A stretch of DNA of 64,000 bases from a virus (IMGVR_UViG_3300007171_000004:224001-288000), one strand, 5' to 3'. Counted from the stretch's first letter, positions 21,180-55,100 are shown. The notes: a model not told the origin generated them from the sequence alone. Program-made: numbers and translations.

Positions 21180-23501
21180 ATGAAATTCAATCTTTCGAAA
21201 TTAAAAACAGCAGCAAAGCCAACCGCACAAGATTTAGAGAATCAGCTTAGAGCAGAATTAGCACCTTTAGCAGAAATGTATCAACAAGGCAAGATTTCTC
21301 AAAAGGATATTTATAGACTCCTTGGTACTACAATCAAGAACTACCAAAATGAAATTATTGCTGAGGAACTTGAAAGATTTAGAAAGCCAGTTCAAGATTT
21401 AACAAGGCAAATTTCAAAACTTAAACCTGATTATGATCCTTCTGATATTTTATCTGAAGTTATGTCTAGCATTAATGTTGCAGTTATTCCTGAATTAAGA
21501 AGACTTTATATTTTAGCAAAGAAGAGAACAGAAGAATTATTTAAAGAAATTTCAATTACTACTGAACCAGAAAAACAAACCTGGGGCACATTTGTAGCAG
21601 ACGAAAAAACAAGAATTTTAGATGACACTAAAGCATCTTTTGAAGAGTTTGTAGATAAGATTTCTAGTATGTTCGGAAATATTTCTGAAGATGAAGCCAA
21701 AGTCTTAATTAGAAATATTCCTCAGCCAGCTAATATTGAAAAAAATCCTGAGTTGCTTGCAAATAGATTCAGTGGAATTGACTCTTATTTTTCAACAAAT
21801 ATTGTAGAGAAAAATCCACTTCCTCAATCCATGTCCAAATATGTAGAAGCCTCAAAAGCTGTGTTTTCATTTTTGACAGGTATCAGAAATAAGGCAAAAG
21901 AAACTTGGACCCAATATATGTCTGGAAGAGATCCAATGGCATTGGAACATTTGCCTAAGGTTGATATGCAAATTGATACAGACCCTTGGAATTTGTTAGA
22001 TCAAGCTGGTTATCAACTATCTGCTTTAATTGGCCCTATATCATATTGGAAAGTTGAAAATAAATCTGGCAATATTGAAAGCGATAGTAGTATAGATAGA
22101 TCATTCAATTCTGATGATGAAATTATTCGAAGAGTTCAAGAAACAGTAGCACAAGGTTATGATGACGATAGATTATTGTATATTTTAACAGATCCAAAAG
22201 AATTACAAGGCAACCCAATTTTAAATGATCCTAATTACAAAAGATTAAGAGCCTTGTTTACTGAAATTTTAAGAAGTAATCGATCTAGATTTAAAGACAT
22301 CTTGGTAAAAGCTGGTTTTCATGATCTTCCTGAAATTGTAGAAAGAGTAGATAAACTTCAAAAAGATCCTGTCTATGCAGATTTTAATCTTTATGTAAGG
22401 TCAAGACCAGAATCAAAACTATATAAAGTTTTAAGAGACGAATTTGACTTAAATCCATTGCCTTTTGAATCTAATATGAGAATGCCATCAGAATTTCCAT
22501 GGGGCAGTACAATTAAAACAGACTTTCTTTTACCAGCAGATGTCATTCAATATTCTGGTAGTGAATTGACAATTAAAAGACAAATTGTTTTCACTGGTGA
22601 ATATCTCGAAGGCCGAACAAAGTCTCAAGATCCTAAACAATTATATGGAGAAAAGCAATTCTTAGGTCCAGACGGTAAGCCTCATAAATTCAATATTAAT
22701 GTTGGTGGAATTTCAATCTCTAAAGAGATGAAGACTGGTGTTTCAGTAAAAGAACAAGATATTTATAATGCTACTGCTGATTGGAAAAAAGTCGCTCAAC
22801 CTGTTGTAGCATCTATGATTGGTTCAGCATCTCTCTACTTTACTGATGAAGATGCTAGACCTCCATATACTTCAGCTGCTAAAAAATTAGATCAACATTT
22901 TATTATTTACGATTTTGCTGGATGTAATGATGATACATGTGTAGCCATGAATTTACTCAAAAAAGTTGCTTCTGAAAATCCTAATAGTGAAGCTGCAAGA
23001 TATCTCGCTACACCAAGAGAATTTGATCAGAAGAAAAAACAACTTGATTATTTAGATGTTGTAAAGGCTAATTTTTTGATGTCTAAAGTATTTTCTGCTG
23101 CCATTGAGCGTTCATCTTCAAATAGTTTCACAGCAGAGTCCATGTATGCTCATTATGAATATTTGAAACAATTAAATCTTGACGAGCAAGATATTTTAAG
23201 AGAATATAGAAATACTCCAGATCAAAATGAAAAATTAAAACAAATTGCAGAATTAAAATTGTCTTTAAACAATTCACCTATGCAAGAATTTAAAGATAAT
23301 TTCGAAGAAGCTAAAAATCAAAAAAGATTTGCAAGAATTTTAGCTGGTTTTGATTACTTAAAAGAATTAGTAAGAAGCACAGATATATCCGATGTTGATC
23401 TTAGAGTTAAAACTAACGATTTACAAAGAGGCTTAAATATCATGGAGCTTAAAACCTCAGCTGAAAGAATTAAGTTAATTAGAAAATATGCCTCTTCTTA
23501 G
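21180..23501 (+). CDS. Large hypothetical protein, probably virion-associated
   Basis: 773 aa; N-terminus MKFNLSKLKTAA and C-terminus IRKYASS carry K-x-A motifs. Confidence 0.8.
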   Translation: MKFNLSKLKTAAKPTAQDLENQLRAELAPLAEMYQQGKISQKDIYRLLGTTIKNYQNEIIAEELERFRKPVQDLTRQISKLKPDYDPSDILSEVMSSINVAVIPELRRLYILAKKRTEELFKEISITTEPEKQTWGTFVADEKTRILDDTKASFEEFVDKISSMFGNISEDEAKVLIRNIPQPANIEKNPELLANRFSGIDSYFSTNIVEKNPLPQSMSKYVEASKAVFSFLTGIRNKAKETWTQYMSGRDPMALEHLPKVDMQIDTDPWNLLDQAGYQLSALIGPISYWKVENKSGNIESDSSIDRSFNSDDEIIRRVQETVAQGYDDDRLLYILTDPKELQGNPILNDPNYKRLRALFTEILRSNRSRFKDILVKAGFHDLPEIVERVDKLQKDPVYADFNLYVRSRPESKLYKVLRDEFDLNPLPFESNMRMPSEFPWGSTIKTDFLLPADVIQYSGSELTIKRQIVFTGEYLEGRTKSQDPKQLYGEKQFLGPDGKPHKFNINVGGISISKEMKTGVSVKEQDIYNATADWKKVAQPVVASMIGSASLYFTDEDARPPYTSAAKKLDQHFIIYDFAGCNDDTCVAMNLLKKVASENPNSEAARYLATPREFDQKKKQLDYLDVVKANFLMSKVFSAAIERSSSNSFTAESMYAHYEYLKQLNLDEQDILREYRNTPDQNEKLKQIAELKLSLNNSPMQEFKDNFEEAKNQKRFARILAGFDYLKELVRSTDISDVDLRVKTNDLQRGLNIMELKTSAERIKLIRKYASS

Positions 23502-27003: not shown

Positions 27004-27010
27004 TTTTATT

Positions 27011-29448: not shown

Positions 29449-29485
29449 AATTGTATAAATAAAAATAAAAAAAGGAATTGATATT

Positions 29486-30387: not shown

Positions 30388-30420
30388 GTTTTATTCTACC
30401 ATCTATTATGATCATCTACA

Positions 30421-30456
30421 AAAAAATTACCCCAGCTTTTTTGCCGGGGTAATTTT
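30421..30456 (-). terminator. Intrinsic terminator downstream of dnaK
   Basis: AAAATTACCCC...GGGGTAATTTT with A-run on the plus strand (U-tract on minus). Confidence 0.75.
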
Positions 30457-30470
30457 CTTTCCGATGATTT

Positions 30471-32291
<1,821 letters not shown>

Positions 32292-32462
32292 TTACCTCTC
32301 ATTTAAAATATATTGTAAATTATACAAAGTTCCGAAAAATCATGAACTTTCTTTACAGATTTTAAGCAACCTAATTATACCACATTAGGCCAAAAAAGGA
32401 AATCTGAACCGAAACTTTATAACATCATAAGTAAGAAAAAAGTTTCTAAGGATTTTTTTAAT

Positions 32463-33789: not shown

Positions 33790-33820
33790 AAAAAAGGGGA
33801 GATTCATTCTCCCCTTTTTT
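33790..33820. terminator. Bidirectional intrinsic terminator
   Basis: AAAAAAGGGGAGA-TTCAT-TCTCCCCTTTTTT between convergent genes. Confidence 0.8.
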
Positions 33821-40439: not shown

Positions 40440-43400
40440 TTGAAAAGATTATCACAAGAAGAAGAAATTCAAGTGCCACCACAAGAAGTTCAAATTACTC
40501 CAGAAGAAAGAGAAGCCTGGTTTCAAAATTCTATACCTCTATTAGAAAAGTATCAAGTTCCACAAGAATATTATCCATATTATAGACAACTAGCTAATAT
40601 TTCAGCATCAGAAAGACTTTATACGATTGCTGTTAATAATTGGGGTAAATATATTGATCAAATCAAAAATGGTTTAGATACTCCAGAAGATTATCAAGCA
40701 ATACAAATATTAAGAAAAAATCCAGGATTCAATAATTTTCCCCAAGAGAGAATTAAAGATTACATTAGATTTCTTCAAAATTATCCAGATCTATATGAAA
40801 AATATAACTGGTCTTTTTATCAGTCAATCATGGAGAATCCAAATTTTTTCCAAGATGACAATAAACAGCTATTACTTAGTAGGTTCTTTTACTTTGGTTC
40901 ATCTCATCCTAAAAAACAAATTGATGATGCAATAAATTTTATCGAAAGAATATCTGCATACCCAGAGATATTTAATTATCTTGTAGATGAATCAAATGAA
41001 AAATATGAAATTACAAAAACTTATTTAGATTTTTGTAATAAGTATCCAGATCAAGTAGATTTTTTCGCACAAGGTCTTAGAAGATTTAAGTTTATAAACT
41101 CTTTTTATAATTTTATTAACCAATTTGCTGAAAATAATTCAATTAATTTCAAAGAAGCAAGAGAAGCTTTTGAATTAATTGATAATGAAACTTCAAAACT
41201 AACCGCATATAATATTAAAAAGGTAAAAGAAAATCTTAAAACTCCTGAAGATATAGAAACTTTTAATAAAGTTACTAGAAGATTTTTTGACGGCACTTTA
41301 GCTACCCCATATGAACGTGACTTGAGAGAATCTAGCAGTAAAGAAGAGTATGGCTTTTTTAGTAATGTAGATCAACATAGAGAAATTGATTCATTAATTT
41401 TTCTTGCTAAAACCACAATTGGTAAAGGAGCTGCAAATCTGCCCGATGGTAAACTATATATTTATTTAGGCGGAATGTACAAAGATGCTTTAAATCAATT
41501 AATTAAAGTTTATTATTTCTATAAAAATAATGGAAATCTGTCAGATGAAGAAATAATTGAAAAATGCAATGATTTAAAATTATTTGATGAATCAGGTGCA
41601 TCTAATATTAGCATACAAAAAGTTTTATCTAATAATCAAGATTATCAAAATATTGTACTTCAAAAATCAGGATTATCACACTTAAAAAACGACGGCAACT
41701 TGGATTTTTTGAAAGATTTTTATTATATATTTACTTATTTAAATCAAGATACTATTCAAAAAATTCTTCAAGAAATCTCTCATAAATTAAATATAACTCT
41801 AACTAGTGATAATGTCGAACTTATCAAAAGCCAGTTTAATTTAATTCAACCAAGAATCATATCGCTTTTGCAAGCAAAAGATACATTATCAAGAACATTT
41901 ATTCCAAATAGCTTCATCAAAGATTTTCTGAATTTCTTTTTTAACAAATATCCATATCATTATAGTAATATTCTTAAAAGTTTAATTGATAATATTCAAC
42001 AAATTCCTACTGAAAAATTTTCACCACGTTATTTTGATGAATTAGTTATTAAATATATCAAATCAGATCTTAAATATTCAAGATTTGACGACTTTGAAGG
42101 TGATATATTAGATTATGTTTCTTTATATGAAACAGGAAATACTTACTTAAATAAACTTGATTTATCTGATGAGCAAATTGAAAAAATCAAGCAATTATAT
42201 GATCAATATTCTAAAGAATTTAGATTTCCAAAATCAACTCTTATCAATTTAGCAATATTAGAAGTTACACAAGGAGTTGAATTATCAGGTGAGTTTGCAA
42301 AAAATTTTAAAAACCATGATTTGCTTGATAAAATTTCTGACACAATATTTGAATCAAAAAATAAAAATCCTAAAGATATAGAATTTATCTTAAATAAATT
42401 TTCAAATTTAGTTACACCATATTTTCTTGTAGCAATTGCAAATTCTTTAAAATATAAGACACAAAGATTTATTGAACAAATAAAATCATTACCTCTTGAA
42501 ATTATGTTATGTTTGATTTTGGATGGGGATGATGTTGAGCTTTTTGAACTAGATGATTCAGAAGCTAGAGATTATATAAACAAATTTGATAGACAATATA
42601 GAAATTTACATAAAAATACAAGAGAATATTTTGTAGTTTTATGTTTCACAATTACATATAAAAATTTATTTGGAATGCCATCAAATTTAATGATTTCTGG
42701 AATAAATAATGATATTGATAAAGATGGAAGTTATGAAGTCATTGAACAAAGTACAGATGCTTATTCATTTTTATTATTAATTTTTGGAAAAAACATTACC
42801 AATTGGCTTAGAAAATTTAATGATCCACATGATGCTGTTCAAGGTTTTAATATAGATTTTAATTGGCCAAGAAGTGAAAAAGCATTTGGTGATTATTTAT
42901 TGAAAGCGACTTTGGGATATAAAAATCTTTCTACTTTTCCAACTCAAAAAATTAAAATGATCCAAAATTATTGGCTCGAATTGACTGAAGAAGAAAAACA
43001 ACTTCCATTTGCTCAATTATATAGCGTTTGTGATGTCAAAAATTTCAAAAAAATTCATAGTGAATATGATGTAAAAAGTGATAAATTCGCTTCTGAGTAT
43101 CAATCAGCAGCCATGAAATCTGGTTTTGAACCACTTCAAGAACATTATTTAAATTCTTTGAATGTACCGCTTCCAAGTTGGTCTAATGTCGTAATTAGTA
43201 AAGGTGGATATACAGGAAGATTTTTGCCAAGAAGTGACGCAAGAGGTATTTTTTTAGGCAAGCACACAGATTGCTGTCAATCCCCTGGCGATGCAGGAGA
43301 AGGAGCAGCTCTTTATGGGCAAATTGAACCTACTTCTGCTTTCTTTGTTGTTGAAAATAAAAAAGGTCAGATTATAGCTCAATCTTGGGTTTGGGAAGAT

Positions 43401-43769
43401 GTTTCTAAAAAAATCATTGTATTTGACAATATTGAGGGAAAAGGATTAGGATACAATGATGATGACACTGATGAAGAAAGACTGCAGAAATTAAAAAGAC
43501 AAAAACAAATATTTGAACTTTACACTGCATTCTCAAATATGATGCCAGATGAGTATTCTGTTTATGTTGGTGGTGGATATTCCAAAGTTGATCTTGAAGA
43601 ATTAGCTGATGAAGATAAAGTAGAGCAAGAATTTGATTATAAAGCGTCAATACCTAGAAAAAATTATGTATTAGACACTGATAGAAATCGTATAATAATT
43701 GACGACGATAAAATTTATTCTGATGCATATAAGCAATTTAGAATTTTAAGGAGTAATAATAGTGAATAA
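40440..43769 (+). CDS. Large hypothetical protein with conserved-looking C-terminal domain (LG..TDCCQ...AQSWVW...VFDNIE)
   Basis: 1109 aa, TTG start after SD GAGG; MKRLSQ N-terminus; helical body; function not established. Confidence 0.8.
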   Translation: MKRLSQEEEIQVPPQEVQITPEEREAWFQNSIPLLEKYQVPQEYYPYYRQLANISASERLYTIAVNNWGKYIDQIKNGLDTPEDYQAIQILRKNPGFNNFPQERIKDYIRFLQNYPDLYEKYNWSFYQSIMENPNFFQDDNKQLLLSRFFYFGSSHPKKQIDDAINFIERISAYPEIFNYLVDESNEKYEITKTYLDFCNKYPDQVDFFAQGLRRFKFINSFYNFINQFAENNSINFKEAREAFELIDNETSKLTAYNIKKVKENLKTPEDIETFNKVTRRFFDGTLATPYERDLRESSSKEEYGFFSNVDQHREIDSLIFLAKTTIGKGAANLPDGKLYIYLGGMYKDALNQLIKVYYFYKNNGNLSDEEIIEKCNDLKLFDESGASNISIQKVLSNNQDYQNIVLQKSGLSHLKNDGNLDFLKDFYYIFTYLNQDTIQKILQEISHKLNITLTSDNVELIKSQFNLIQPRIISLLQAKDTLSRTFIPNSFIKDFLNFFFNKYPYHYSNILKSLIDNIQQIPTEKFSPRYFDELVIKYIKSDLKYSRFDDFEGDILDYVSLYETGNTYLNKLDLSDEQIEKIKQLYDQYSKEFRFPKSTLINLAILEVTQGVELSGEFAKNFKNHDLLDKISDTIFESKNKNPKDIEFILNKFSNLVTPYFLVAIANSLKYKTQRFIEQIKSLPLEIMLCLILDGDDVELFELDDSEARDYINKFDRQYRNLHKNTREYFVVLCFTITYKNLFGMPSNLMISGINNDIDKDGSYEVIEQSTDAYSFLLLIFGKNITNWLRKFNDPHDAVQGFNIDFNWPRSEKAFGDYLLKATLGYKNLSTFPTQKIKMIQNYWLELTEEEKQLPFAQLYSVCDVKNFKKIHSEYDVKSDKFASEYQSAAMKSGFEPLQEHYLNSLNVPLPSWSNVVISKGGYTGRFLPRSDARGIFLGKHTDCCQSPGDAGEGAALYGQIEPTSAFFVVENKKGQIIAQSWVWEDVSKKIIVFDNIEGKGLGYNDDDTDEERLQKLKRQKQIFELYTAFSNMMPDEYSVYVGGGYSKVDLEELADEDKVEQEFDYKASIPRKNYVLDTDRNRIIIDDDKIYSDAYKQFRILRSNNSE

Positions 43770-45884: not shown

Positions 45885-46244
45885 ATGAAAAGATATGCTG
45901 ACAAATTTCAAGATCAATTGCAAAATATGATCAATATTCTCGACCAATTCAATTCTCTTTATTCTGAAACAAGTAGATATGGAAATAAAGATGTTTCTGC
46001 ATTAGATGCTCAAGCAGAAATGTTACAATCTGAATTTTCAAGATTAATGAGATTATATATTGAAAGCAAATCTGGAGAAGTTACAAGAAGATATTTAGAT
46101 AGAGTAGATAGAGCTGATACACCAGGGCAATTAGATAGAATTAAAAGAAAAATGCAAACTGAAAAATTCCCTGTAGATCAAGAAGCTGTATTAAATGCCA
46201 TATCTGAAAAACTTAAATCAAGAGGATATGATGATGTGGTATAA
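45885..46244 (+). CDS. Hypothetical helical protein (MKRYA N-terminus)
   Basis: 119-aa ORF; its stop overlaps the next start (ATGTGGTATAA). Confidence 0.75.
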   Translation: MKRYADKFQDQLQNMINILDQFNSLYSETSRYGNKDVSALDAQAEMLQSEFSRLMRLYIESKSGEVTRRYLDRVDRADTPGQLDRIKRKMQTEKFPVDQEAVLNAISEKLKSRGYDDVV

Positions 46245-46797
46245 ACTTGCTGCTATAAGAGTCAATGACCAAGAAGTTCCAGAAGAAGATTTCCTTAAAA
46301 AATTTATCAATGTTGCTACTAATGTTAATAAACAACATTATTGGATAGTTAATGGCGAAAAGTATGCTCCACCAGAAAACTATGGACATAACTACACTGC
46401 CATGATGCTTAAATTACAACATGGTGTCTATCCAAATGATCCAGATTTTAATGAAACACCTATTGAATTTGTTGGAAGAGGAATTGGGAGCATGGCTAAT
46501 GGCGGAACAATAAGAGTTAGCCAGATGTTAGATGATGCTGATCTTTCTATATATGGACCTGTCAGCGATAATACTCTTGAAAACATACTAAAATTTATAT
46601 CCCCAGACTGTATAGGTCAATGGGAAATTCTTAATGTTGCTGGAAACCCAAATGGAAGAGGATTTGATTCTCTTAAACAAACAATCCAGAATCTTACATT
46701 AGGACTTAATCAAAACACAAAAGAAGAAATTGACACTGCTCCTATCAAAAGAGTTGACAACACTCCATCATTTTATAAAGGCAGATCTGGAGACTAA
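46234..46797 (+). CDS. MWYK-leader protein with C-terminal YKGRSGD
   Basis: MWYKLAA start after GAGG; ends TPSFYKGRSGD. Confidence 0.8.
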   Translation: MWYKLAAIRVNDQEVPEEDFLKKFINVATNVNKQHYWIVNGEKYAPPENYGHNYTAMMLKLQHGVYPNDPDFNETPIEFVGRGIGSMANGGTIRVSQMLDDADLSIYGPVSDNTLENILKFISPDCIGQWEILNVAGNPNGRGFDSLKQTIQNLTLGLNQNTKEEIDTAPIKRVDNTPSFYKGRSGD

Positions 46798-46821
46798 TTT
46801 TAGCCTCAAAATCATCTAATT

Positions 46822-47190
46822 TCACTCAGTTACACAATAAGATATACAAACAGTTGGCTCCCAGAAAGATTGCAAATATCGTACCTTTACAGAATTAACA
46901 TATCTAGTAGTGTCATTAGGAACAATTTTTGCTCTTACTAATAAATCTACAATAGGTTTTATCAAATTGTCAGAGTCGTGTTTCATCTTCCAATTCATAT
47001 CTGCCATAACTAAAATTTCTACATCAACTGGAAATGAATCAGCTGGCAACATAGATTCAACAATTATTGGTAAATTCTTATCTATCCATTCTCTATATTT
47101 TTTACTTTTAATTAATTTGCCATAAGCTACTGGAGTGTACATCTTATTTGCTGAAAATGGATGTGTAATAGTACAATACTTCTTAAGCAT
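46822..47190 (-). CDS. rusA: RusA-family Holliday junction resolvase
   Basis: PFSANKMY, SKKYREW, KHDSDNLIKPIVDLL, IVPNDT. Confidence 0.8.
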   Translation of the reverse strand: MLKKYCTITHPFSANKMYTPVAYGKLIKSKKYREWIDKNLPIIVESMLPADSFPVDVEILVMADMNWKMKHDSDNLIKPIVDLLVRAKIVPNDTTRYVNSVKVRYLQSFWEPTVCISYCVTE

Positions 47191-47238
47191 ATATTTCTTT
47201 TACAGGGATATAGGAGTAAAATCGGTAAAATTAAAATC

Positions 47239-48924
47239 ATGTGGTATCGAATATCTAATCAATTACAATTACCTGAAACTGATGTCCCTCAAAATCCTGT
47301 AGAACCAGAAGTCCAGGAAGAAGAGCAAGAGCAACCTCAGCTTTTAGAAACAGAAAAACCAACGCAAAGCTTATTTTTTAGTGAATGGGCTAAGGATCAT
47401 TATGTTCCAACTCAACCTGTTTATCATGGGACGACTCACGACTTTGACGAATTTCAAATTATCAACACTGGAGATAATTCTTTAGGTGATGGTTTCTATT
47501 TCACTAGTGAAGACAAAGAAGCTGAAAAATTCTATACAGGAAAAGGCGGAGATCAACTGCGACAAATTGATCGAATCGCCACAGATTTTGCTGATTCATA
47601 TTATGGCAACGATGATGAACTATTTGAATTGTTTGGTGATAAATATCCAGAATGTTTCCAAGATGGCGAAGTTAAAGATGCTTATGAATTAGGTGAAAAA
47701 ATTGGATCTGATCGAATTCTTGGAGGAAAACCTAAAGTAATTCCAGCTCATATTAGAATGAAAAATCCATTTGTCTTAACTCAAATGAATCCTAACTTTC
47801 CTTACAGCCCAACTATGTTTTATGATGATTTCCAAGAAGAAGAAATTCCAGAAGCTGATGGGGATGATGGATATGACCCTGAAAATAATGAATCGCCAGA
47901 AAAATTAATTATTGAAAAAGATGGAGAGAAAAAATATTCTTTCAAAACATTAATTCACAAACTCTATGATATTTTATTAGAATATTATGAAGATTATAAT
48001 GCTTATGAATTTATTAACCAAGTAATATTAGATAATGCAAACCCTGGTGCAGATATCAACGCAATGCATATTTTCCAATCTATAACAAATCAAACTGAAT
48101 ATTTCAAACATCAATATGAAGATGATTACCATAGCGAAATAGTAAAAAAACTTATGGAATCTTTAGGTTTTGACAGCATTATCCAAGACCCAAAGGCATT
48201 CTGGCCATCTAATGAATATGAACCAGGAACACAACATTATTTCTTATGGAAGCCTGAGAACATTAAACACGCTAGAGAAAATATTGAATTTAATCCTGAT
48301 AGCAGAAAAATTTATTCAGCCTATATGTTTAATCCAGAAGGTCAAGGTGTTTTAGATTTAGGCATCAAGCTAAAATATGACCCATCTAATTATGAAGCTA
48401 GAATTGAGAAAGAAAGAAATGACAAGAATTCTCACATGCTAGATATTGGAGCTTATATTAAAGGTACAAATATCAAACTAGGACAGATTGATTTATTTTG
48501 TGATAAATCAGTTCCACCTGAAGAAAGATATGTAGATGTTGAATTAGTTTTAGTCTATGATAATAATAAAAGTTTTAAACAACAACTAAGACAACAATAT
48601 AATCCACTTGAAATAGATGAATTTAGTGGATCAAGAGTTAAATGGGGTATTGGAGAATTTCTTTATAACGCTGCAAGAAAATTGATCCAAGAAAAAATGC
48701 CTGAAGTGAAATATATTGCTGGTAATATTCATAGTAAAGAAGCATTCAAAGCAAGAAATAAAGCGTTCGGTGATCCTTTAGAAATAAAAGATGTTAATAC
48801 AGACACTAATGTTTCTCAATTAGATGCTCAAAAACAAATTCCATATATGGTTTTTGATGAATATACAGAACAACCAGAATTTCGAACAGATGACGCATTT
48901 TGGGTAAAACATAATGTGGTATAA
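47239..48924 (+). CDS. MWYR-leader polyvalent protein: ADP-ribosyltransferase-like domain plus possible C-terminal GNAT
   Basis: PVYHGTTHDFDEF, LGDGFYFTS..EA..FY, VIPAHIRMKNPF, LGFDSII; C-terminal RVKWGIGEFLYNAA. Confidence 0.65.
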   Translation: MWYRISNQLQLPETDVPQNPVEPEVQEEEQEQPQLLETEKPTQSLFFSEWAKDHYVPTQPVYHGTTHDFDEFQIINTGDNSLGDGFYFTSEDKEAEKFYTGKGGDQLRQIDRIATDFADSYYGNDDELFELFGDKYPECFQDGEVKDAYELGEKIGSDRILGGKPKVIPAHIRMKNPFVLTQMNPNFPYSPTMFYDDFQEEEIPEADGDDGYDPENNESPEKLIIEKDGEKKYSFKTLIHKLYDILLEYYEDYNAYEFINQVILDNANPGADINAMHIFQSITNQTEYFKHQYEDDYHSEIVKKLMESLGFDSIIQDPKAFWPSNEYEPGTQHYFLWKPENIKHARENIEFNPDSRKIYSAYMFNPEGQGVLDLGIKLKYDPSNYEARIEKERNDKNSHMLDIGAYIKGTNIKLGQIDLFCDKSVPPEERYVDVELVLVYDNNKSFKQQLRQQYNPLEIDEFSGSRVKWGIGEFLYNAARKLIQEKMPEVKYIAGNIHSKEAFKARNKAFGDPLEIKDVNTDTNVSQLDAQKQIPYMVFDEYTEQPEFRTDDAFWVKHNVV

Positions 48925-49816
48925 ATTCGCTGCTCAAGGAATAATTCAACACCAAGTATCTGACCAAGAAATAGATGCGCTTGTAGATAGATCTCTTATT
49001 GACACTGGATCAACATATTTAATCAATCAATTCTCCCTAAGAGATGGATTGCTGGATTTATTCCCAAGCCTTAATAATGTCAAATTTCAAAGCCTACCTG
49101 ATGAATTTGGACTCTATAATATCACAACTCAAGAATTAATATTAGAAGATGAAATTGCAAAAGAAGATTTAGGCCTTTTTAAAACCAATTTACATCACGA
49201 ACTTCAACATGTAGCAGATCCAAATCTTAAAAGAAATCATGAATATATTAATAAAATAGCTGATGATGCAACTTTAGCTCTTATTATTGATATTCCTGAA
49301 GTTGATGAAGATACAGTTTTCCCAACATATGAAGAGACTGTAAACAAAATTTTCCTCAAATACATGAATAGAAAACCAACAGAATATGACACTCCATTCT
49401 TAGACAAAATTAAAAATAAATATTCAGAAGAACAATTCAATGATGTTATTAATAGAATTAAATCTGGAGATCATCCCTATTATAATTCTCCTATTGAAAA
49501 AGCAGCAAATTTAAAAGATTTCACAAGAATTTTCTCTGTAAGCAATCTATTAGGAATAAAAGATTTAATTTCTAAAAAACCATCATATACAATGGAAAAA
49601 CATATCAAGGTTATTAGCGATATCTTAAGATCTCCATCCTCAGATAAATTTAAAGCTGTACTTGGATTGTTAGAAATAAAATATCCAGAAGCTGAACAAA
49701 CTATTGACCCTCTGTTTATCTTAAATGCCAACACAAGCCCAAAATATGAAAAGCAATTTAAAAAACAATTGGGAAATATTATCAACGAATTACAAGAATT
49801 ATTAAAAGAGAACTAA
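48914..49816 (+). CDS. MWYK-leader protein with HExxH zinc metallopeptidase motif
   Basis: GLYN...LIL..., NLHHELQHVAD, later YYNSPIEK.A. Confidence 0.65.
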   Translation: MWYKFAAQGIIQHQVSDQEIDALVDRSLIDTGSTYLINQFSLRDGLLDLFPSLNNVKFQSLPDEFGLYNITTQELILEDEIAKEDLGLFKTNLHHELQHVADPNLKRNHEYINKIADDATLALIIDIPEVDEDTVFPTYEETVNKIFLKYMNRKPTEYDTPFLDKIKNKYSEEQFNDVINRIKSGDHPYYNSPIEKAANLKDFTRIFSVSNLLGIKDLISKKPSYTMEKHIKVISDILRSPSSDKFKAVLGLLEIKYPEAEQTIDPLFILNANTSPKYEKQFKKQLGNIINELQELLKEN

Positions 49817-49817
49817 C

Positions 49818-50327
49818 ATGTGGTACAAAAAAGCAATTCTTCTTACAGATATTGAAATCGAAATGGAACTTCTTCATAATGCAAAAACCACTGAAGATAT
49901 ACATAAGAATTACAGAAATCTATCTAAAAGACACCACCCTGATGTAAATCCTGATCCAGACTCTACTAAAAATTTTCAAAACATTCAAAATATTTATGAT
50001 GAAGTGAAAGATCAACCACTCTACTCAACTGAAGATTTTACAAGCAGAGAAATGACAGAAGATGATGTTAGAGATAATATAGAACTTCAAGATAATTTTC
50101 TAAATACAGATGAAGAAGCACTTAAAATGGGCATACTTCAATCTGTAGAAACATACTTCAATAATAATGTTCCAGATAATTATGACACACCTGATTTTGA
50201 AATGTATGAATCTTTAACCGAACAAATTTATAATCAAGTTAAAGATATTCAGCCAACACCATATGAAACAATTGCAAATCTAATTAATAATATGGCTGGA
50301 AACTACATTAGAGAAAATTATAGCTAA
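49818..50327 (+). CDS. MWYK-leader J-domain (DnaJ type III) protein
   Basis: EDIHKNYRNLSKRHHPDVNP...FQNIQNIYDEV with intact HPD (49935-49943). Confidence 0.85.
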   Translation: MWYKKAILLTDIEIEMELLHNAKTTEDIHKNYRNLSKRHHPDVNPDPDSTKNFQNIQNIYDEVKDQPLYSTEDFTSREMTEDDVRDNIELQDNFLNTDEEALKMGILQSVETYFNNNVPDNYDTPDFEMYESLTEQIYNQVKDIQPTPYETIANLINNMAGNYIRENYS

Positions 50328-50545
50328 TTCTTCTTCAAACTCTTAGCATATTTTAACATACTATCCACCTGAGCTTTTGATGGAATTTCAGGACTGTCTC
50401 TTCTATACATGTCATAAATTGTTTTCCGAAGATCTTTTGTTTTAGGATTTTTAAACAATATTGCAGCAGGTTCGTGGCATCCAATACAACGTTCCTTATA
50501 TTCAATCTTAGGATCTATTAACATTAAAAATAATATTAACTCCAC
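50324..50545 (-). CDS. Putative miniature c-type cytochrome
   Basis: Short hydrophobic N-terminus, CIGCH haem-attachment motif, candidate Met ligand (TIYDMY), C-terminal helix AQVDSMLKYAKSL. Confidence 0.5.
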   Translation of the reverse strand: MELILFLMLIDPKIEYKERCIGCHEPAAILFKNPKTKDLRKTIYDMYRRDSPEIPSKAQVDSMLKYAKSLKKN

Positions 50546-51141
50546 TGAACATCACACTCTTCTCTAATACAAAAATCTGCCAAAGCTTCTAACTGTAATA
50601 ACTTACCCTCAATATAATTTACATCAATTCCGCCACCGTATGTTCTGGGGCCGTCTTCATCAGGTCTAGTGAATTCTTCTAATATCCTAGAACCTTTAAC
50701 ACTTTCAATTTTCCTCAGTAATGCTAAAGGCGAAATAGAACCCACATCATCACTATTATCTATATTCAACAACTGGAAAATTGTGCGGGCATTCATATTT
50801 GACAATTGAACAGTATAAGAATCAGAAGGCATATGGGCAATACAACTTAAACTCATTACAACTTTACCATTTTTAACAATATTAAATTCTGGAAAAGCAC
50901 CACCCTCATCCATTACCAGATTACCAAACTGCCTGTACTCAGAAATCCAAAATGATAAAGGCTGATAACCATTCTTCTGTACATATTTATAAAAATAATA
51001 AGCCATATCATCATCATATTTATCAGCTAAGATTTTTCTTAAAGAACCATCAGGATCTTCATAAATACGTTCATGACAAAATTCATACAGGGTGTCATCA
51101 TTAACTTCTTTGCGCAAATTAGCACTAAATTCAATACTCAT
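50536..51141 (-). CDS. Hypothetical protein
   Basis: 201-aa acidic ORF. Confidence 0.75.
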   Translation of the reverse strand: MSIEFSANLRKEVNDDTLYEFCHERIYEDPDGSLRKILADKYDDDMAYYFYKYVQKNGYQPLSFWISEYRQFGNLVMDEGGAFPEFNIVKNGKVVMSLSCIAHMPSDSYTVQLSNMNARTIFQLLNIDNSDDVGSISPLALLRKIESVKGSRILEEFTRPDEDGPRTYGGGIDVNYIEGKLLQLEALADFCIREECDVQWS

Positions 51142-51239
51142 AATACTTTTTTTATAAAATTAATGTTAAAAATACCTTCAAGAGGATTTTTTAAAGATAT
51201 TCAGTAAAAATATGTTAATACCTCAAAAAGTAAAACATT

Positions 51240-51917
51240 ATGAATAAAAGACAAATCCTAGCATCATTAAATAATATAGCTTCCACACTTGATAAATTAA
51301 ATTTATTTCAAGAAGCTGATTCAATCACTCTAGTAATGAATAGATTGGCATCATCTGAATCAGATTATGATCAAAGGAGAAAGTATCAAGAACTTTTTGA
51401 TCAAAAATCTTTGTCAGAATTATTAAATGACTTAAAAAAAGTAATAGATGACATTAATATCAAATTAGAAAATGATGCAAAGACAAATTTAGAAAATAAA
51501 TTCAAAAAATTTAAATTAAATAATCCTGAAGCTACATATGAAGATTTTCAAAAAGCAAGTGTATTTAATAGACCAAGAATAGAATATAAAAATCCTATTG
51601 ATGAACTTGTAGCAAAATACGATATAAATGATAACTCAAGCGTAAATCAATTTAATCAATTTGAAAGCGAATTAATGAAAGAAATTGGTAGAGGCTTTTA
51701 TAGCTTTCCTTTTGAAGTTGATGGCCTGAGTTTTGATGGTACTAAATATAATTTAACTTTTCTATTTGACATGATTAGAAAAAAATTAAGAAATAATCCT
51801 GAAGTATTACCATTCAATAATGTACCTCTTCCGCCAACTGAAGGAGAAGATTCAGAAGAAGATGTTTCGAATTTATTAGAATGGGCTAGAAATCCTTATG
51901 AAAAGAGAACATTATGA
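51240..51917 (+). CDS. MNKRQI-leader hypothetical protein
   Basis: MNKRQILASLNNIASTLDKLNLFQEADSITLVMNRLA leader plus unique body. Confidence 0.8.
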   Translation: MNKRQILASLNNIASTLDKLNLFQEADSITLVMNRLASSESDYDQRRKYQELFDQKSLSELLNDLKKVIDDINIKLENDAKTNLENKFKKFKLNNPEATYEDFQKASVFNRPRIEYKNPIDELVAKYDINDNSSVNQFNQFESELMKEIGRGFYSFPFEVDGLSFDGTKYNLTFLFDMIRKKLRNNPEVLPFNNVPLPPTEGEDSEEDVSNLLEWARNPYEKRTL

Positions 51918-52435
51918 ATAAAAGACAAATTATTGCTTCATTAAATAATATTGCTAATGAACTGGATAATAATTATTTATATAAAGAAGCTAACACTCTC
52001 ACTAATATTATGATTAAAGTGGCAGATGAATTTAATATCGAACCAAATTCTCAACCTGTAAACAATTCGCCAGAACAATCAAATAATATTCAACAAAATC
52101 AACCTCAGCCTTTTATTAAATTTGATCTTCTTACAACAAAAGGAAATAGTCAATCCTTTACTAAAACAGAGGGATTTACGATTGGAAGACAGGGCGATAT
52201 AGTAACTCCACCCGAAATCAATACAGTTTCAAGACAACATTGTCACATAACAAGAAATAGATATGGGAAATGGGCAGTATATGACCTTGGTAGTAAAGCT
52301 GGCACAAAACTTAATAGAAATCAATTATCACCAAGGGTAGGGCAAGAATTAGAAATTCATGATGGTATATTTCTAGATCCTTGGGTTGTAATTGAAATCA
52401 TGGATATGTATCCTCTTCCAAGTGAAAAAGAATAA
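51914..52435 (+). CDS. MNKRQI-leader FHA-domain protein
   Basis: FTIGRQGD...TVSRQHCHI...VYDLGSKAGTKLN (G-R, S-R-x-H and D-x-x-S-x-x-G-T of FHA). Confidence 0.85.
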   Translation: MNKRQIIASLNNIANELDNNYLYKEANTLTNIMIKVADEFNIEPNSQPVNNSPEQSNNIQQNQPQPFIKFDLLTTKGNSQSFTKTEGFTIGRQGDIVTPPEINTVSRQHCHITRNRYGKWAVYDLGSKAGTKLNRNQLSPRVGQELEIHDGIFLDPWVVIEIMDMYPLPSEKE

Positions 52436-52451
52436 TAAAGAAAGAAAGCAA

Positions 52452-53012
52452 ATGAATAAAAGACAAATTTTAGCATCCCTTAATAAGATTGCAAATACAT
52501 TAGATAATACTGGAATGTATGTTGAAGCTAATTCTGTAACTAAAGTAATGACAAGATTAGCAGATGAATTTAATATCGAAACCCCAGCTGATGAAAGAGA
52601 AAATAAGAGACAAAGAATTATCACTGAAGCTTTAAATACTCAAGTCAGAAAAGATAATTTGCCTAAAACAATGCAATATTATATACCTGGTGGACCTTTA
52701 CTTACTATGAAAGAAATTGCAGATGCTATAATTGAGAAGGCAGATAGAGATGCAGATGCTCTTATTGCTATGCTTAATCGAGGAAAAATGGGTACTGAAG
52801 TAATTGTGCAAAATTCTTTAAAAATGTTGAGTAGTTTCAAAGAGCAATTATTAGATGTATTTAAAATGTATGGTATTCCTTCTGCTCCAGTTTTTTATTA
52901 TATTGACCAAGCACATAAACCAATTATTGCAAAGTTAAATCAAAAAATCAAAGAATACAACGAATACCATGATGAAGATTTGTTTAAAGATGAAGAAAAT
53001 AATCCTACCTAA
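52452..53012 (+). CDS. MNKRQI-leader hypothetical protein
   Basis: MNKRQILASLNKIANTLDNTGMYVEANSVTKVMTRLADEF; start moved to 52452. Confidence 0.8.
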   Translation: MNKRQILASLNKIANTLDNTGMYVEANSVTKVMTRLADEFNIETPADERENKRQRIITEALNTQVRKDNLPKTMQYYIPGGPLLTMKEIADAIIEKADRDADALIAMLNRGKMGTEVIVQNSLKMLSSFKEQLLDVFKMYGIPSAPVFYYIDQAHKPIIAKLNQKIKEYNEYHDEDLFKDEENNPT

Positions 53013-53244
53013 GATTATTCATAAAAGCATCCAATAATCTACAAATCATAATAAAACTAAACATAATATTAGAAAGATATAACCAAGCTAATTTATAACT
53101 CTTGCGATTCTCAATATGATATCGCCAGAAATAATAACCACAAATCCATAAACAAATTAAATACAATAATAATGATAAACCAAACTCAGATGTATAAGCA
53201 AAAAAAGAAAAAGCTAACATCTGAAAAATAAATATTAAAGACAT
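53005..53244 (-). CDS. Small multi-pass membrane protein
   Basis: Three hydrophobic stretches in 79 aa. Confidence 0.6.
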   Translation of the reverse strand: MSLIFIFQMLAFSFFAYTSEFGLSLLLYLICLWICGYYFWRYHIENRKSYKLAWLYLSNIMFSFIMICRLLDAFMNNLR

Positions 53245-53263
53245 ACAAATATTATAAAAGAAG

Positions 53264-53291
53264 AAAGAGAGATCTAAAGATCTCTCTTTTT
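53264..53291. terminator. Hairpin terminator
   Basis: AAAGAGAGATC-TAAA-GATCTCTCTTTT. Confidence 0.6.
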
Positions 53292-53306
53292 ATTTATTAA
53301 CCTAAA

Positions 53307-54323
53307 TTACACATGAGGAAACATTAACAATAACTTGCTTAAATTAAATGCTGCTCTATTTATTTTCATTTGGATCATTGTGGAATTATTTAAAAATTCC
53401 ATCATACTATCATAATATTCTTTACTAATTCTTTTACCTTTAAGAGCTGGAATAAGATCATGAGGATCAGTGTAAAGATTATCCACAATGTGTACTATAT
53501 CAATATAAGAAAACTTACCACCAGGAAGTGATTTGAATTTACTTTTCTTTTCATCCCTTAAGAAAAATTTTAAAGCATTTTCTCTAACTTCTTCATGACT
53601 TGCATCTGGATGGTCTTTAATATATTTCTCTACAAAATTCACTACAATTTTATTCTTTGGATTTTTCTTTATCAAAAATTCTATATGAGGATTTACAACT
53701 TTTGTTTTTAATAAGTTTACACCCGACTTATGCTCATCTTCTCTTGATTCTTCTAAAAAATACTCTACAGCAGATACACCCATGGATAAAGAAGGAATAT
53801 CAATATGACTACGAAGATCTATATGCATTAAAAAATTCAACATTTTAGAAATTGAATTAAATACTGCAAATAAATGAGTAGCTACACCATGCATACCACC
53901 AGAAGCTTTAAAATGCTCTTTAAATATTTTGACACGTAAAGACGAATCCTCAATACCCTCAAGCTGCTTACATACTTCCAATAAATTATATATGTCAGTA
54001 ATTATACCCATTAAACTAAATTGCTTCTTGATTAACAATTGAAGAGGCTTTTGTTGCTCAAAAATTTTAACAACATTAGATAAAATAGGAACTAATTCAT
54101 GAGAAACTTTCAATATCGAATTAGAGAGATTTTTAAATTTTTCAGAATCAGGATCTAAACCACCAAAATGATAAAGTTCATCTAATTTTTCTTTGCTGCC
54201 TTCTAAACCGGATAATAGTTTTTCAGGAACAATTTTAATTCTACCATCCCTTGACTCAACATCAGTCTCAGTAGAATTAAATCCAGATAAGTTTGATAAA
54301 TTTATTGCAATTCTATACCACAT
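53307..54323 (-). CDS. MWYR-leader hypothetical protein
   Basis: MWYRIAIN start; helical body with central hydrophobic segment. Confidence 0.8.
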   Translation of the reverse strand: MWYRIAINLSNLSGFNSTETDVESRDGRIKIVPEKLLSGLEGSKEKLDELYHFGGLDPDSEKFKNLSNSILKVSHELVPILSNVVKIFEQQKPLQLLIKKQFSLMGIITDIYNLLEVCKQLEGIEDSSLRVKIFKEHFKASGGMHGVATHLFAVFNSISKMLNFLMHIDLRSHIDIPSLSMGVSAVEYFLEESREDEHKSGVNLLKTKVVNPHIEFLIKKNPKNKIVVNFVEKYIKDHPDASHEEVRENALKFFLRDEKKSKFKSLPGGKFSYIDIVHIVDNLYTDPHDLIPALKGKRISKEYYDSMMEFLNNSTMIQMKINRAAFNLSKLLLMFPHV

Positions 54324-54431
54324 AAATACATAATTCTATATATTAAATATCAATCCCTAAATAATAAGATAAAAGGACTTAAATGCTTATAAAAGAATTA
54401 ATATAATAAGATCTACATAGGGATTAACAAT

Positions 54432-55100
54432 ATGAATAAAAAACAAATATTAGCTTCTTTGAATAATATAGCTAATAGACTTGATCAAAAATCTGAATAT
54501 GAACAGGCTGATAAGATTACTGGTTTAATGGTGAAAATATCCCAAATGCCCATCAAACAAGCTGGATTCATGGACGTTCTATCAACTATCGGAAGTGGAC
54601 TATATGAAGCTGGCGGAAGTGCTTTACAAGGATTTCAGGGAATTGGCTCAGCATTAGTATCAAACGCAGGAGGAATAGGAGGGGTATTAGCAGGGGGAAT
54701 AACAGGAGGACTAGGAGGAGCAGCAGGAACAGGAGCAGTTGTAAACAATTACCTAAATTCCAAAAACTATCAAAATCACCTTAAAGACAAAGCATACAGA
54801 GAAAAAGATAAAATGCGAGTATATGTTGAAGCTGAAACTCAAAAAATTATTACAGAAATAACAAACCTTATCAAAAATAACAAAAACATAACTCCAGAAG
54901 CTGCAAAACAACAAGCCATAAATAAAGCTCAATCTCATCCATATTTTCAACAAATTAACGCCTACTGCACAACTTATAATAAAATGAGCTTTACTGATAT
55001 TATTGCCACAAAATTCGATTCCTATGTTGCTAAATTATTACCACAGAAAAATATAGCAGTGAAACCTAATGTTTGGGTCCCACCTGTCGAAAAATATTAA
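54432..55100 (+). CDS. MNKKQI-leader protein with glycine-zipper-like hydrophobic segment
   Basis: MNKKQILASLNNIANRLDQKSEYEQADKITGLMVKISQ; GGIGGVLAGGITGGLGGAAGTGAVV. Confidence 0.75.
   Translation: MNKKQILASLNNIANRLDQKSEYEQADKITGLMVKISQMPIKQAGFMDVLSTIGSGLYEAGGSALQGFQGIGSALVSNAGGIGGVLAGGITGGLGGAAGTGAVVNNYLNSKNYQNHLKDKAYREKDKMRVYVEAETQKIITEITNLIKNNKNITPEAAKQQAINKAQSHPYFQQINAYCTTYNKMSFTDIIATKFDSYVAKLLPQKNIAVKPNVWVPPVEKY

What the first reader, a model, noticed from the sequence alone, without database searches (positions are those of the whole stretch)
46234..54323. Second leader class: five unrelated proteins begin M-W-Y-[K/R]-x-[A/S]
Seen: MWYKLAA (46234), MWYRISN (47239), MWYKFAA (48914), MWYKKAI (49818) and MWYRIAI (54323, minus strand). 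Payloads are unknown, ART/GNAT, HExxH peptidase, J-domain and helical. Codons vary (TAT/TAC; AAA/CGA/AGA), so the constraint is on the peptide rather than the DNA. MKRLSQ (40440), MKRYAD (45885) and MKFNLSKLKTAA (21180) end the same way. Inference: a 6-residue minimal version of the capsid-targeting and cleavage tag, comparable in size to the T4 10-aa CTS.
Basis: partly seen in the sequence, partly recalled or inferred. Interest (0 to 1): 0.75.

Follow-up and report, generated by a model that had tools for sequence, protein, structure and literature searches.

The report
Six-residue address tag on phage proteins
An uncultured giant water-borne phage related to Bacillus phage G starts many unrelated proteins with the same six residues (Met-Trp-Tyr-Lys/Arg-x-Ala/Ser), most likely a minimal label for loading enzymes into the virus head and trimming them there, though no experiment has tested this.

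Summary
All five starts are at the stated coordinates. The 129-kb contig holds eight MWY[KR]x[AS] N-termini against 0.008 expected. Internal WY[KR] occurs at chance level. Near-complete relatives carry 13-16 such genes each, on at least 26 unrelated payload families. Seven Lys/Arg codons and both Tyr codons are used, so the constraint is on the peptide.

Orthologues of the HExxH payload begin either with MWYK-x-AAQ or with a 33-residue helical leader that ends ...TAAQ at the same junction. The two leader classes are therefore interchangeable. Stand-alone ART payloads in other phage lineages carry other short tags of the same build (hydrophobic, basic, Ala/Ser, Gln), including phage-G-like ones.

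Capsid targeting plus cleavage remains an inference. The support is indirect:
- One member is the conserved gene just upstream of the portal.
- The [KR]-x-[AS] motif flanks the assemblin-like head-protease domain at conserved positions.
- Some of these genes share a promoter type with head genes.
- The payloads resemble T4 Alt and polyvalent-protein modules.

No cleavage or virion data exist, and no paper mentions the motif. The scan had already noted related leaders and the cleavage motif on other parts of this genome. Verdict: a new variant of the T4 capsid-targeting-sequence idea.

The parts
46234..46797 (+). MWYKLAA protein, 187 aa. Payload unknown; LPD26 is a weak hit below the cut-off.
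   Evidence: An AAGAGGA box lies 7 nt before this ATG.
47239..48924 (+). MWYRISN protein, 561 aa. Order: tag, about 50-aa acidic Pro/Glu/Gln linker, ART-PolyVal domain, then a C-terminal domain shared with another MWY-tagged family (MWYREAVTRVDPSGQ...).
   Evidence: PF18760, E 2e-11; homologues are internal domains of 1200-5200-aa proteins, or tagged stand-alone forms.
48914..49816 (+). MWYKFAA protein, 300 aa, with an HExxH (HELQH) zincin-like motif. Its orthologues carry either the MWY tag or a 33-aa helical leader.
   Evidence: alignment A3; LPD23 and SprT-like as leads only.
49818..50327 (+). MWYKKAI protein, 169 aa, J domain (HPD) starting about residue 15.
   Evidence: PF00226, E 8e-11; the orthologue in L121 starts MWYRLAI.
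53307..54323 (-). MWYRIAI protein, 338 aa, all-helical, no family match.
   Evidence: M1 W2 Y3 R4 A6 I7 invariant down to 49% identity; model of low confidence; residues 1-56 have pLDDT below 50, i.e. they are not confidently modelled.
54333..54358 (-). Promoter-like element AGG-N17-TAGAAT ending 9 nt before the ATG of the MWYRIAI gene. The same two-box type stands before head genes.
40440..43769 (+). 1109-aa protein with a TTG start, MKRLSQ. A short tag of the phage-G type.
45885..46244 (+). MKRYAD protein, 119 aa, first gene of the operon that continues with MWYKLAA. A -10-like CAGAAT lies 9 nt before its ATG.
21180..23501 (+). MKFNLSKLKTAA protein, 773 aa, short tag ending K-T-A-A.
51240..53012 (+). 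Three genes with the long helical leader MNKRQI[LI]ASLN...M-x-[KR]-[LV]-A-[SD] (payloads include FHA). They adjoin the MWY genes.
54432..55100 (+). Fourth long-leader gene (MNKKQILASLN...MVKISQ), divergent from the MWYRIAI gene, with its own AGG-N16-AAGAAT element.

Best explanation
MWY[KR]-x-[AS] is the shortest member of a set of N-terminal leaders that this clade of about 300-360-kb phage-G-like phages attaches to about 40 proteins per genome. I read it as a head-loading and processing tag.

Proposed mechanism:
1. The aromatic-basic-hydrophobic-small peptide (P5 Trp, P4 Tyr, P3 Lys/Arg, P2 hydrophobic, P1 Ala/Ser) is recognised inside the assembling prohead.
2. The most likely receptor is the assemblin-like protease that is fused to a roughly 1000-residue scaffold-like protein encoded next to the portal gene.
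3. The carrier is thereby trapped in the head, and the tag is cut off after the Ala/Ser.
4. The payloads (ADP-ribosyltransferase, Nudix, zincin, J domain, PcfJ-like and others) would then be ejected with the DNA, as T4 Alt and the T4 internal proteins are.

Shown here: the tag exists, it is constrained at the peptide level, it is portable, it is lineage-specific, and it is interchangeable with the helical leader. Inferred: loading into the head, cleavage, and ejection.
For: Enrichment
- 8 observed against 0.008 expected in this contig, and 13 against 0.02 in the near-complete relative G006.
- The DNA pattern occurs 13 times against 0-1 for the reversed control in two near-complete relatives.

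Peptide-level constraint
- Seven Lys/Arg codons and both Tyr codons are used.

Link to the head
- The small gene directly upstream of the portal starts MWY[KR] in all 56 related loci that hold it, and MSWYR in a 52%-identity clade.

Equivalence with the helical leader
- HExxH orthologues have either tag at the same junction.
- In G006 five consecutive MWY genes follow two helical-leader genes in one operon.

Lineage-specific tags on one payload
- Stand-alone ART homologues carry MWYKRAQ, MWWRKSQ, MSKLLRVSQ, MLRLSQ, MFKKAQ and others before the same QPSLFF block.
- Phage G head-module genes gp5, 9, 10, 12, 13, 17, 20, 38 and 53 start with M..R[LI].KK.[AS].

Candidate cleavage motif
- [KR]-phi-[AS]-Q is 4.5-fold enriched in the first 45 residues of G006 proteins: 28 against 4.05 +/- 2.1 in shuffles.
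- [KR]TAS at residue 30 and [KR][LVI]AQ at residue 304 flank the protease domain in all relatives. Four more conserved sites lie downstream.

Protease
- PHROG 'head maturation protease', best E-value 8e-22 among the 16 members scanned (7.5e-18 for this contig's own copy).
- The top Foldseek rows are herpesvirus proteases, but weak (E 0.016 or worse).

Co-regulation
- The AGG-N16-17-[AT]AGAA element stands before the protease gene and a 302-aa head-module gene, and also before MWY operons. Tagged genes are about 6-fold more often in operons headed by it (p 0.005 and 2e-5).

Payload type
- ART-PolyVal is an internal module of 1200-5200-aa proteins.
- T4 Alt, an ART, is packaged in the head and injected (PMC5512222).
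- The T4 CTS is a conserved N-terminal peptide on diverse internal proteins (PMC3012670).
- A helical-leader glucosaminidase in a relative fits a virion-borne entry enzyme.
Against: - No virion proteomics, N-terminal sequencing or cleavage assay exists for any phage of this clade. The phage G head paper (PMC7316594) is not held, and the 2025 phage G paper gives no N-terminal data.
- Most MWY genes in the window lie far from the head module.
- Only 3 of 8 MWY genes here and 6 of 16 in G006 sit in operons with the strict promoter match.
- The protease fold match is not significant, and Pfam Peptidase_S77 finds nothing.
- A six-residue peptide is short for a targeting signal.
- Position 7 (the putative P1') is variable: Q, I, A or K.
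- In the pre-portal family the Ala/Ser lies at position 8, not 6.
- A ClpX-like unfoldase gene lies 1-3 kb from MWY genes in three relatives, which would also fit a different reader of the tag.
Confidence: 0.5

Rival explanations
1. The tag is a handle for an AAA+ unfoldase or protease (ClpX-like, with ClpP), not for the capsid. It would act as an N-terminal degron that times the turnover of phage effectors, or as a recognition peptide for remodelling.
For: - W-Y-K-L has the hydrophobic-hydrophobic-basic-hydrophobic build of ClpX N-terminal recognition motif 1 (lambda O, Dps). This is from my own knowledge of Flynn et al. 2003 and was not checked here.
- A ClpP-like gene is in this contig, and ClpP is in two relatives.
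- A 447-464-aa ClpX-like gene (AAA_2, Zn-finger N-terminus) lies 1-3 kb from MWY genes, inside clusters of tagged genes, in G006, G007 and G009.
- The 2025 phage G paper reports ClpP and ClpX in particle proteomics.
Against: - The tag is interchangeable with a 33-residue helical hairpin leader, which is not degron-like.
- The same motif type sits on stable head-module proteins and at conserved internal sites flanking the head protease.
- The oldest and most conserved carrier is the gene next to the portal.
Confidence: 0.12
2. The tag is a docking peptide for some other phage hub that is not the capsid interior, for instance the phage Hsp70/J-protein system, a tail or baseplate assembly factor, or a membrane or secretion adaptor. 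It is not cleaved.
For: - The phage encodes Hsp70 and several J-domain proteins, one of them MWY-tagged.
- Nothing here shows cleavage.
- The residue after the Ala/Ser is variable.
- Tagged genes are scattered over the genome.
Against: - The motif shared with the helical leaders also marks conserved sites around the protease domain.
- Tags are followed by acidic or polar linkers rather than hydrophobic stretches, so this is not a Sec, Tat or lipoprotein signal.
- The only universally conserved carrier is in the head module.
Confidence: 0.15
3. The conservation is at the RNA level. AUGUGGUAYARR would be a translation-initiation context, perhaps for leaderless mRNAs, and the peptide would be a by-product.
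For: In 8 of 11 operon-first MWY genes a -10-like TA[GA]AAT ends exactly 9 nt before the ATG. These mRNAs may therefore have almost no leader.
Against: - Position 4 uses AAA, AAG, AGA, AGG, CGA, CGG and CGC, but almost never other codons. Position 6 uses eight Ala/Ser codons.
- MWY is kept in genes inside operons that have Shine-Dalgarno boxes or overlapping stop-start codons.
- Variants with one or two residues before the Trp (MSWYR, MSPWYK) keep WY[KR].
Confidence: 0.04
4. The shared start is a neutral relic of recombination between neighbouring cassettes (a shared 5' gene end used as a crossover point), with no function of its own.
For: - Leader-bearing genes come and go between strains. 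One related strain lacks the two leader genes between 51143 and 52450.
- One orthologue pair differs by presence or absence of the tag.
Against: - The shared DNA is only about 9-11 bases and varies at synonymous sites.
- M-W-Y-[KR] is invariant over orthologues down to 49% identity while flanking residues drift.
- Enrichment is about 1000-fold over chance in several genomes.
Confidence: 0.04

Closest known systems
Capsid targeting sequence (CTS) of phage T4 internal proteins IPI-III and the processed N-terminus of Alt
   Same: A short conserved N-terminal peptide sits on otherwise diverse proteins. T4 loads these into the scaffolding core, trims them with the head protease and injects them (PMC3012670, PMC5512222). 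One payload here is an ADP-ribosyltransferase, as Alt is. The size is comparable: 6-7 residues here, about 10 in T4.
   Different: There is no sequence similarity. The putative cleavage motif is [KR]-x-[AS], not [LI]-x-Glu. The tag coexists with, and swaps with, a 33-residue helical leader. It sits on at least 26 payload families. Loading and cleavage are not shown here.
N-terminal propeptides of head and ejection proteins of phiKZ-like phages (SPN3US gp245, phiKZ gp175 substrates)
   Same: These are jumbo phages with roughly 50 head proteins. Many are cut by an assemblin/gp21-like prohead protease at a short motif and ejected into the host (PMC10052503, PMC7411985, abstracts).
   Different: Those propeptides are long and dissimilar to each other, and they end in [SAG]-x-Glu. 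Here there is a single near-invariant hexapeptide at the very N-terminus.
Herpesvirus assemblin with its release and maturation sites (cleavage Ala|Ser; from my own knowledge)
   Same: A protease domain is fused to a scaffold protein and is flanked by short sites with Ala at P1. Here [KR]TAS and [KR][LVI]AQ flank the protease domain, and the top fold matches are herpes proteases.
   Different: The fold match is weak (E 0.016 or worse). The order of residues in the motif differs. No cleavage is shown.
Polyvalent proteins of phages and conjugative elements (Iyer et al. 2017, PMC5512222)
   Same: The payload families overlap: ART-PolyVal above the cut-off, with LPD26 and LPD23 as leads only. PcfJ-like is a further payload, but that paper does not mention it. 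The inferred role is the same, namely effectors delivered with the DNA.
   Different: Here the modules are separate small proteins, each with its own tag, instead of 2-15 domains in one polypeptide. In effect this is an unbundled version.
Encapsulin cargo-loading peptides (from my own knowledge)
   Same: A short terminal peptide is enough to load unrelated cargo into a shell made of an HK97-fold protein.
   Different: Those peptides are usually C-terminal and Gly/Ser/Leu-rich, they bind the shell protein itself, and they are not cleaved.
N-terminal M..R[LI].KK.[AS] starts of Bacillus phage G head-module genes
   Same: Same position, same build (hydrophobic, basic, small) and the same kinds of carrier. 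These include the gene after the protease (gp20), small genes before the portal, and gp53, whose N-terminal region (MHGTSS...) looks like an ART start by eye; it was not run against any family library.
   Different: No Trp-Tyr. As far as I could find, this has not been described in the literature either.

Membership tests
T4-type capsid targeting sequence / protease-removed N-terminal tag | The same short N-terminal peptide on otherwise unrelated proteins of one phage | tested here: met
   8 proteins in 8 BLAST clusters here and at least 26 clusters in relatives; 8 observed against 0.008 expected.
T4-type capsid targeting sequence / protease-removed N-terminal tag | The tag ends in the cleavage consensus of the phage's own prohead protease | tested here: inconclusive
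   [KR]-x-[AS] matches a motif conserved on both sides of the protease domain and enriched at N-termini. The protease's specificity is unknown.
T4-type capsid targeting sequence / protease-removed N-terminal tag | The phage encodes a gp21/assemblin-type prohead protease | tested here: inconclusive
   PHROG head maturation protease matches all 16 relatives, best E-value 8e-22. Foldseek ranks herpes proteases first but with E 0.016 or worse on a model of pLDDT 59. Pfam Peptidase_S77 finds nothing.
T4-type capsid targeting sequence / protease-removed N-terminal tag | Carriers are present in mature heads with the tag removed | not testable with these tools
   No cultured member. The phage G proteomics tables are not held.
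T4-type capsid targeting sequence / protease-removed N-terminal tag | The tag alone loads a foreign protein into the head | not testable with these tools
   Needs an experiment.
Polyvalent proteins (Iyer 2017) | Payload domains belong to families defined from polyvalent proteins | tested here: met
   ART-PolyVal at 45.3 bits against a cut-off of 31.2. Its homologues are internal to 1200-5200-aa proteins. LPD26 is below the cut-off, and LPD23 is a language-model lead only.
Polyvalent proteins (Iyer 2017) | Two to fifteen effector domains in one polypeptide | tested here: not met
   The tagged proteins are 72-738 aa with one or two domains.
ClpX N-terminal recognition signals | Free N-terminal hydrophobic-hydrophobic-basic-hydrophobic peptide, and a ClpX/ClpP present | tested here: inconclusive
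   The pattern fits by eye. ClpP-like and ClpX-like genes are present in the clade. Degradation cannot be tested, and the swap with a helical leader argues against.
Sec/Tat/lipoprotein signal peptides | Hydrophobic core of 10 or more residues after a basic N-region | tested here: not met
   Tags are followed by polar or acidic linkers or directly by the domain.

The most novel reading that the evidence does not exclude
The hexapeptide is nothing more than a complete recognition site of the head protease placed at the extreme N-terminus, and substrate binding to the protease-scaffold fusion is itself the loading mechanism. These phages would then carry an 'unbundled polyvalent protein': some 40 separately tagged enzymes per genome that are captured, trimmed and injected. 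On this reading any protein could be sent into the head by six added residues.
Probability: 0.25. Interest if true: 0.8.

Novelty: new variant of a known kind. Interest (0 to 1): 0.62.

Why it matters
If the tag loads proteins into the head, it gives a sequence-only way to list the injected arsenal of a whole clade of uncultured 300-360-kb phages: about 15 MWY proteins and about 40 tagged proteins per genome, including ADP-ribosyltransferases, Nudix hydrolases, zincins and J proteins. It would also be one of the shortest known cargo tags for an HK97-type shell, which is useful for packaging foreign proteins. The same logic appears in cultured Bacillus phage G (MKRL-type starts), so the idea can be tested now in the laboratory. 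The natural swap between a 6-residue tag and a 33-residue helical leader on one payload is a ready-made experiment on what such a signal minimally needs.

Tried and rejected
- Structure of the 338-aa payload from 11 orthologues: pLDDT 49, not usable, so no fold search was run.
- Language-model search for the 187-aa payload: no usable hit.
- Pfam on the C-terminal half of the ART protein: no GNAT or any other family.
- Pfam Peptidase_S77 in five genomes: nothing.
- PDB sequence search with the giant post-portal protein: nothing.
- PHROGs on the tagged proteins: no annotated families.
- Literature: no paper holds MWYK, MWYR, MKRLIKK or the like in a relevant sense. The phage G head-structure paper is not held. 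The 2025 phage G paper has no N-terminal or cleavage data and no held supplements.
- Public runs: only assembled contigs with small shares, one labelled metatranscriptomic. They cannot show transcript starts or expression. Parts without cover mean nothing.
- Orthologues of the 187-aa and 738-aa payloads were not found in the loci I held.
- Considered and rejected: a signal peptide (no hydrophobic core); a DNA-level repeat (synonymous variation); mis-called starts (orthologues and Shine-Dalgarno spacing agree with MWY).

Full report
**What the window is.** The window is bases 34399-98398 of a single 129,429-bp virus contig with 33% G+C. The contig encodes a portal, a large terminase, a Pol III alpha subunit, ribonucleotide reductase, Hsp70 and rIIB. 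Its portal has 69 relatives in IMG/VR at 52-97% identity. Several of these sit on contigs of 260-358 kb that CheckV rates 73-99% complete, so this contig is about a third of a jumbo-phage genome. An identical protein is on record on a 300,536-bp contig. The closest cultured phage is Bacillus phage G, with 30% portal identity.

**The observation.** All five N-termini are at the stated coordinates with the stated codons. A six-frame scan of the whole contig finds WY[KR] 17 times. Eight of these follow an ATG, and all eight open an ORF. The three outside the window are:
- a 125-aa gene directly upstream of the portal (L001:6317-6694 -, MWYRIAQ);
- a pair near the contig end (L004:9621-9839 MWYRYSG and L004:9839-12055 MWYKFAA).

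From composition, 0.008 such starts are expected among 150 ORFs and eight are observed, all with Ala/Ser at position 6 (p about 5e-22). Internal WY[KR] is at chance. The eight payloads do not match each other. Pfam confirms ART-PolyVal and DnaJ. The HExxH is visible in the sequence. The 'GNAT' label is not confirmed.

**Relatives.**
- The gene before the portal starts MWY[KR] in all 56 loci that hold it, although the following residues drift. In the most distant clade it starts MSWYR.
- The DNA pattern ATGTGGTAY[AC][AG]N occurs 13 times in each of two near-complete relatives, against 0 and 1 for the reversed control.
- In G006 (358 kb), WYR is the commonest residue 2-4 tripeptide of 401 ORFs. 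Fifteen ORFs start MWY and one starts MSPWYK.
- Across the loci I collected 87 non-redundant MWY proteins in 26 BLAST clusters.
- The cluster-weighted logo is M, W, Y, R 0.61/K 0.34, variable, A 0.69/S 0.19, then Q/I/A/K.
- Position 4 uses seven codons (AGA 34, AAA 24, CGA 10, AAG 9, AGG 3, CGG 1, CGC 1). Tyr is TAT 53 and TAC 29. Position 6 uses four Ala and four Ser codons. The constraint is therefore on the peptide.
- Further payloads include NUDIX and PcfJ-like domains.
- One orthologue pair differs by presence or absence of the tag.
- The 99%-complete distant relative G008 has WY[KR] only on the pre-portal protein and uses starts such as MSKIFKKIAQ and MGGIFKKSQ instead. The multi-gene MWY family is therefore specific to the nearer clade.

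**Relation to the other leaders.** This is the most informative result. Of 91 database homologues of the HExxH protein, about 60 start MWY[KR][FLI]AAQGII and 27 start M[HY]IKDLLEQAYLLDKKGYYKEADNVTRIIT[AS]AQGII. The alignment places MWYK on the first four residues of the helical leader and x-AAQ on its last four. The MWY tag thus equals the helical leader without its 25-residue hairpin, joined to the payload at the same residue. The two classes are interchangeable in nature.

They also share operons. In G006 two helical-leader genes are followed by five consecutive MWY genes. In the window the MWY genes adjoin four MNKRQI-leader genes.

The ART payload shows the same thing across lineages. Its domain is internal to many 1200-5200-aa proteins of the polyvalent type. 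Stand-alone forms carry, just before a conserved QPSLFF block, MWYKRAQ, MWYKYAQ, MWWRKSQ, MSKLLRVSQ, MSRLRRVSQ, MPKFRRVSQ, MLRLSQ, MFKKAQ, MAIFKKAQ or MGIIKSQ. The tag follows the phage lineage, not the payload.

Phage G itself starts gp5, 9, 10, 12, 13, 17, 20, 38 and 53 with M..R[LI].KK.[AS]. gp20 follows the head protease gp19, and gp53's N-terminal region looks ART-like by eye, though I did not scan it against a family library. The window's MKRLSQ (TTG start at 40440) and MKRYAD are of this type.

**What could read the tag.**
- Downstream of the portal, all relatives encode a 1380-1800-aa protein. Its residues 54-242 match PHROG families of head maturation proteases (best E-value 8e-22 among 16 relatives).
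- A model of the first 320 residues (pLDDT 59) ranks herpesvirus proteases first in the PDB, but not significantly.
- Two relatives have an intein-like insertion right after the invariant DVSMG[CA]. This is consistent with, but does not show, a catalytic site there.
- The domain is flanked in every relative by [KR]T[AS]S at residue 30 and [KR][LVI]AQ at residue 304. Four more conserved [KR]-x-A-[SQA] sites lie in the scaffold-like remainder.
- The same motif closes the helical leaders (M-x-[KR]-[LVI]-[AS]) and the short tags.
- In G006, [KR]-phi-[AS]-Q occurs 28 times in the first 45 residues against 4.05 +/- 2.1 in shuffles. It is 4.5-fold denser there than elsewhere.

Read in this register, MWYKLA is Trp at P5, Tyr at P4, Lys at P3, Leu at P2 and Ala at P1. 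That is a complete site with nothing in front of it. I used it as a lead and tested it in the ways just listed. It remains unproven.

**Expression.** A two-box element, AGG-N16-17-[AT]AGAA, stands before the protease gene and a 302-aa head-module gene. It also stands before the MWYRIAI gene, the MWYRYSG-MWYKFAA operon and one long-leader gene. Tagged genes are about six times more likely than untagged ones to lie in operons headed by it, both in this contig and in G006 (p 0.005 and 2e-5). The strict pattern covers only 3 of 8 and 6 of 16 MWY genes. Looser -10-like boxes (TAAAAT, TAGTAT, GAGAAT) lie before most of the others, ending 9 nt before the ATG in 8 of 11 operon-first genes. These mRNAs may therefore be nearly leaderless. 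This prompted the RNA-level rival, which the codon data reject.

**Best explanation and rivals.** Taken together, the tag most likely marks proteins for incorporation into the prohead and for trimming. The payloads would be injected enzymes, as in T4, where Alt (an ART) and the internal proteins carry a conserved N-terminal targeting sequence and are cut by gp21 (PMC3012670, PMC5512222). I put this at about 0.5.

The main rivals are:
- recognition by the clade's ClpX-like unfoldase, whose gene lies inside clusters of tagged genes in three relatives;
- docking to some other phage hub without cleavage.

Nothing here shows cleavage, virion location or a binding partner. The public runs that hold related DNA are contigs only and gave no usable information on transcripts.

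**Novelty.** No paper in the library mentions the motif. In kind it is a variant of the capsid-targeting-sequence idea. The new elements are:
- the sequence itself and its extreme brevity;
- the natural swap with a helical leader;
- the number of payload families;
- the link to polyvalent-protein modules, which here occur as separately tagged proteins;
- the parallel tag in cultured phage G, which makes the hypothesis testable.

Earlier notes of this scan had already flagged the helical leader, the cleavage motif and the promoter on other windows of this genome.

Noticed in passing
L151-L152 (relative G008, bases 14479-33178): About 36 tandem small ORFs of 50-77 aa all start MINTDCV and continue with irregular x-Q-V-[WR] repeats. 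This is a large array of mini-genes in the 99%-complete distant relative.
   Followed up: no
L035:12495-17915 and L067:12244-17586: The post-portal protease gene carries an intein-like insertion directly after the invariant DVSMGC in two relatives. The proteins are about 400 aa longer than in the other relatives.
   Followed up: partly
window 44177-45145 (-): Prepilin-type protein with an N-terminal methylation motif and DUF1559 (PF07963, PF07596), a family typical of Planctomycetota and Verrucomicrobiota. A similar gene lies near the head module of L051. Many genes here have Shine-Dalgarno boxes. Both facts hint at a host outside the Bacteroidota.
   Followed up: partly
window 54324-54358, and upstream of other MWY genes in G006: A -10-like TA[GA]AAT ends exactly 9 nt before the ATG in 8 of 11 operon-first MWY genes, so these transcripts may have almost no leader.
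   Followed up: partly
L129, L130, L131 (relatives G009, G007, G006): A conserved cluster holds a ClpX-like AAA+ protein (447-464 aa, Zn-finger N-terminus), a 330-aa J-domain protein, two MWY genes, short-tag genes (MSKF[VI]KV[AS]) and helical-leader genes.
   Followed up: partly
L130:3439-4332 (+): A glucosaminidase (PF01832) carries the N-terminal MMNFRKIAQ plus a helical leader. It is a candidate virion-borne cell-wall hydrolase.
   Followed up: no
window 51143-52450: A contig of a related strain (run X6) joins 51143 to 52450 with 104 other letters between. That strain therefore lacks the two long-leader genes found here, which suggests cassette-like gain and loss of tagged genes.
   Followed up: no
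window 33819-40342 (-): Five tandem paralogues of 429-442 aa start MAIF[TP]... and have a C-terminal Laminin_G_3 domain. Their N-termini resemble the 216-238-aa gene that sits just before the major capsid gene in relatives (MAIRALN...).
   Followed up: no
window 40440-40829: The 979-aa ORF called from ATG 40830 is open upstream to a TTG at 40440 with an AAGAGGAAAG box. The real protein is probably 1109 aa and starts MKRLSQ.
   Followed up: partly
window 48313-48924 (+): The C-terminal about 200 aa of the ART protein are homologous to a separate MWY-tagged family (MWYREAVTRVDPSGQ..., 220-437 aa) found in relatives. This indicates domain shuffling among tagged proteins.
   Followed up: partly
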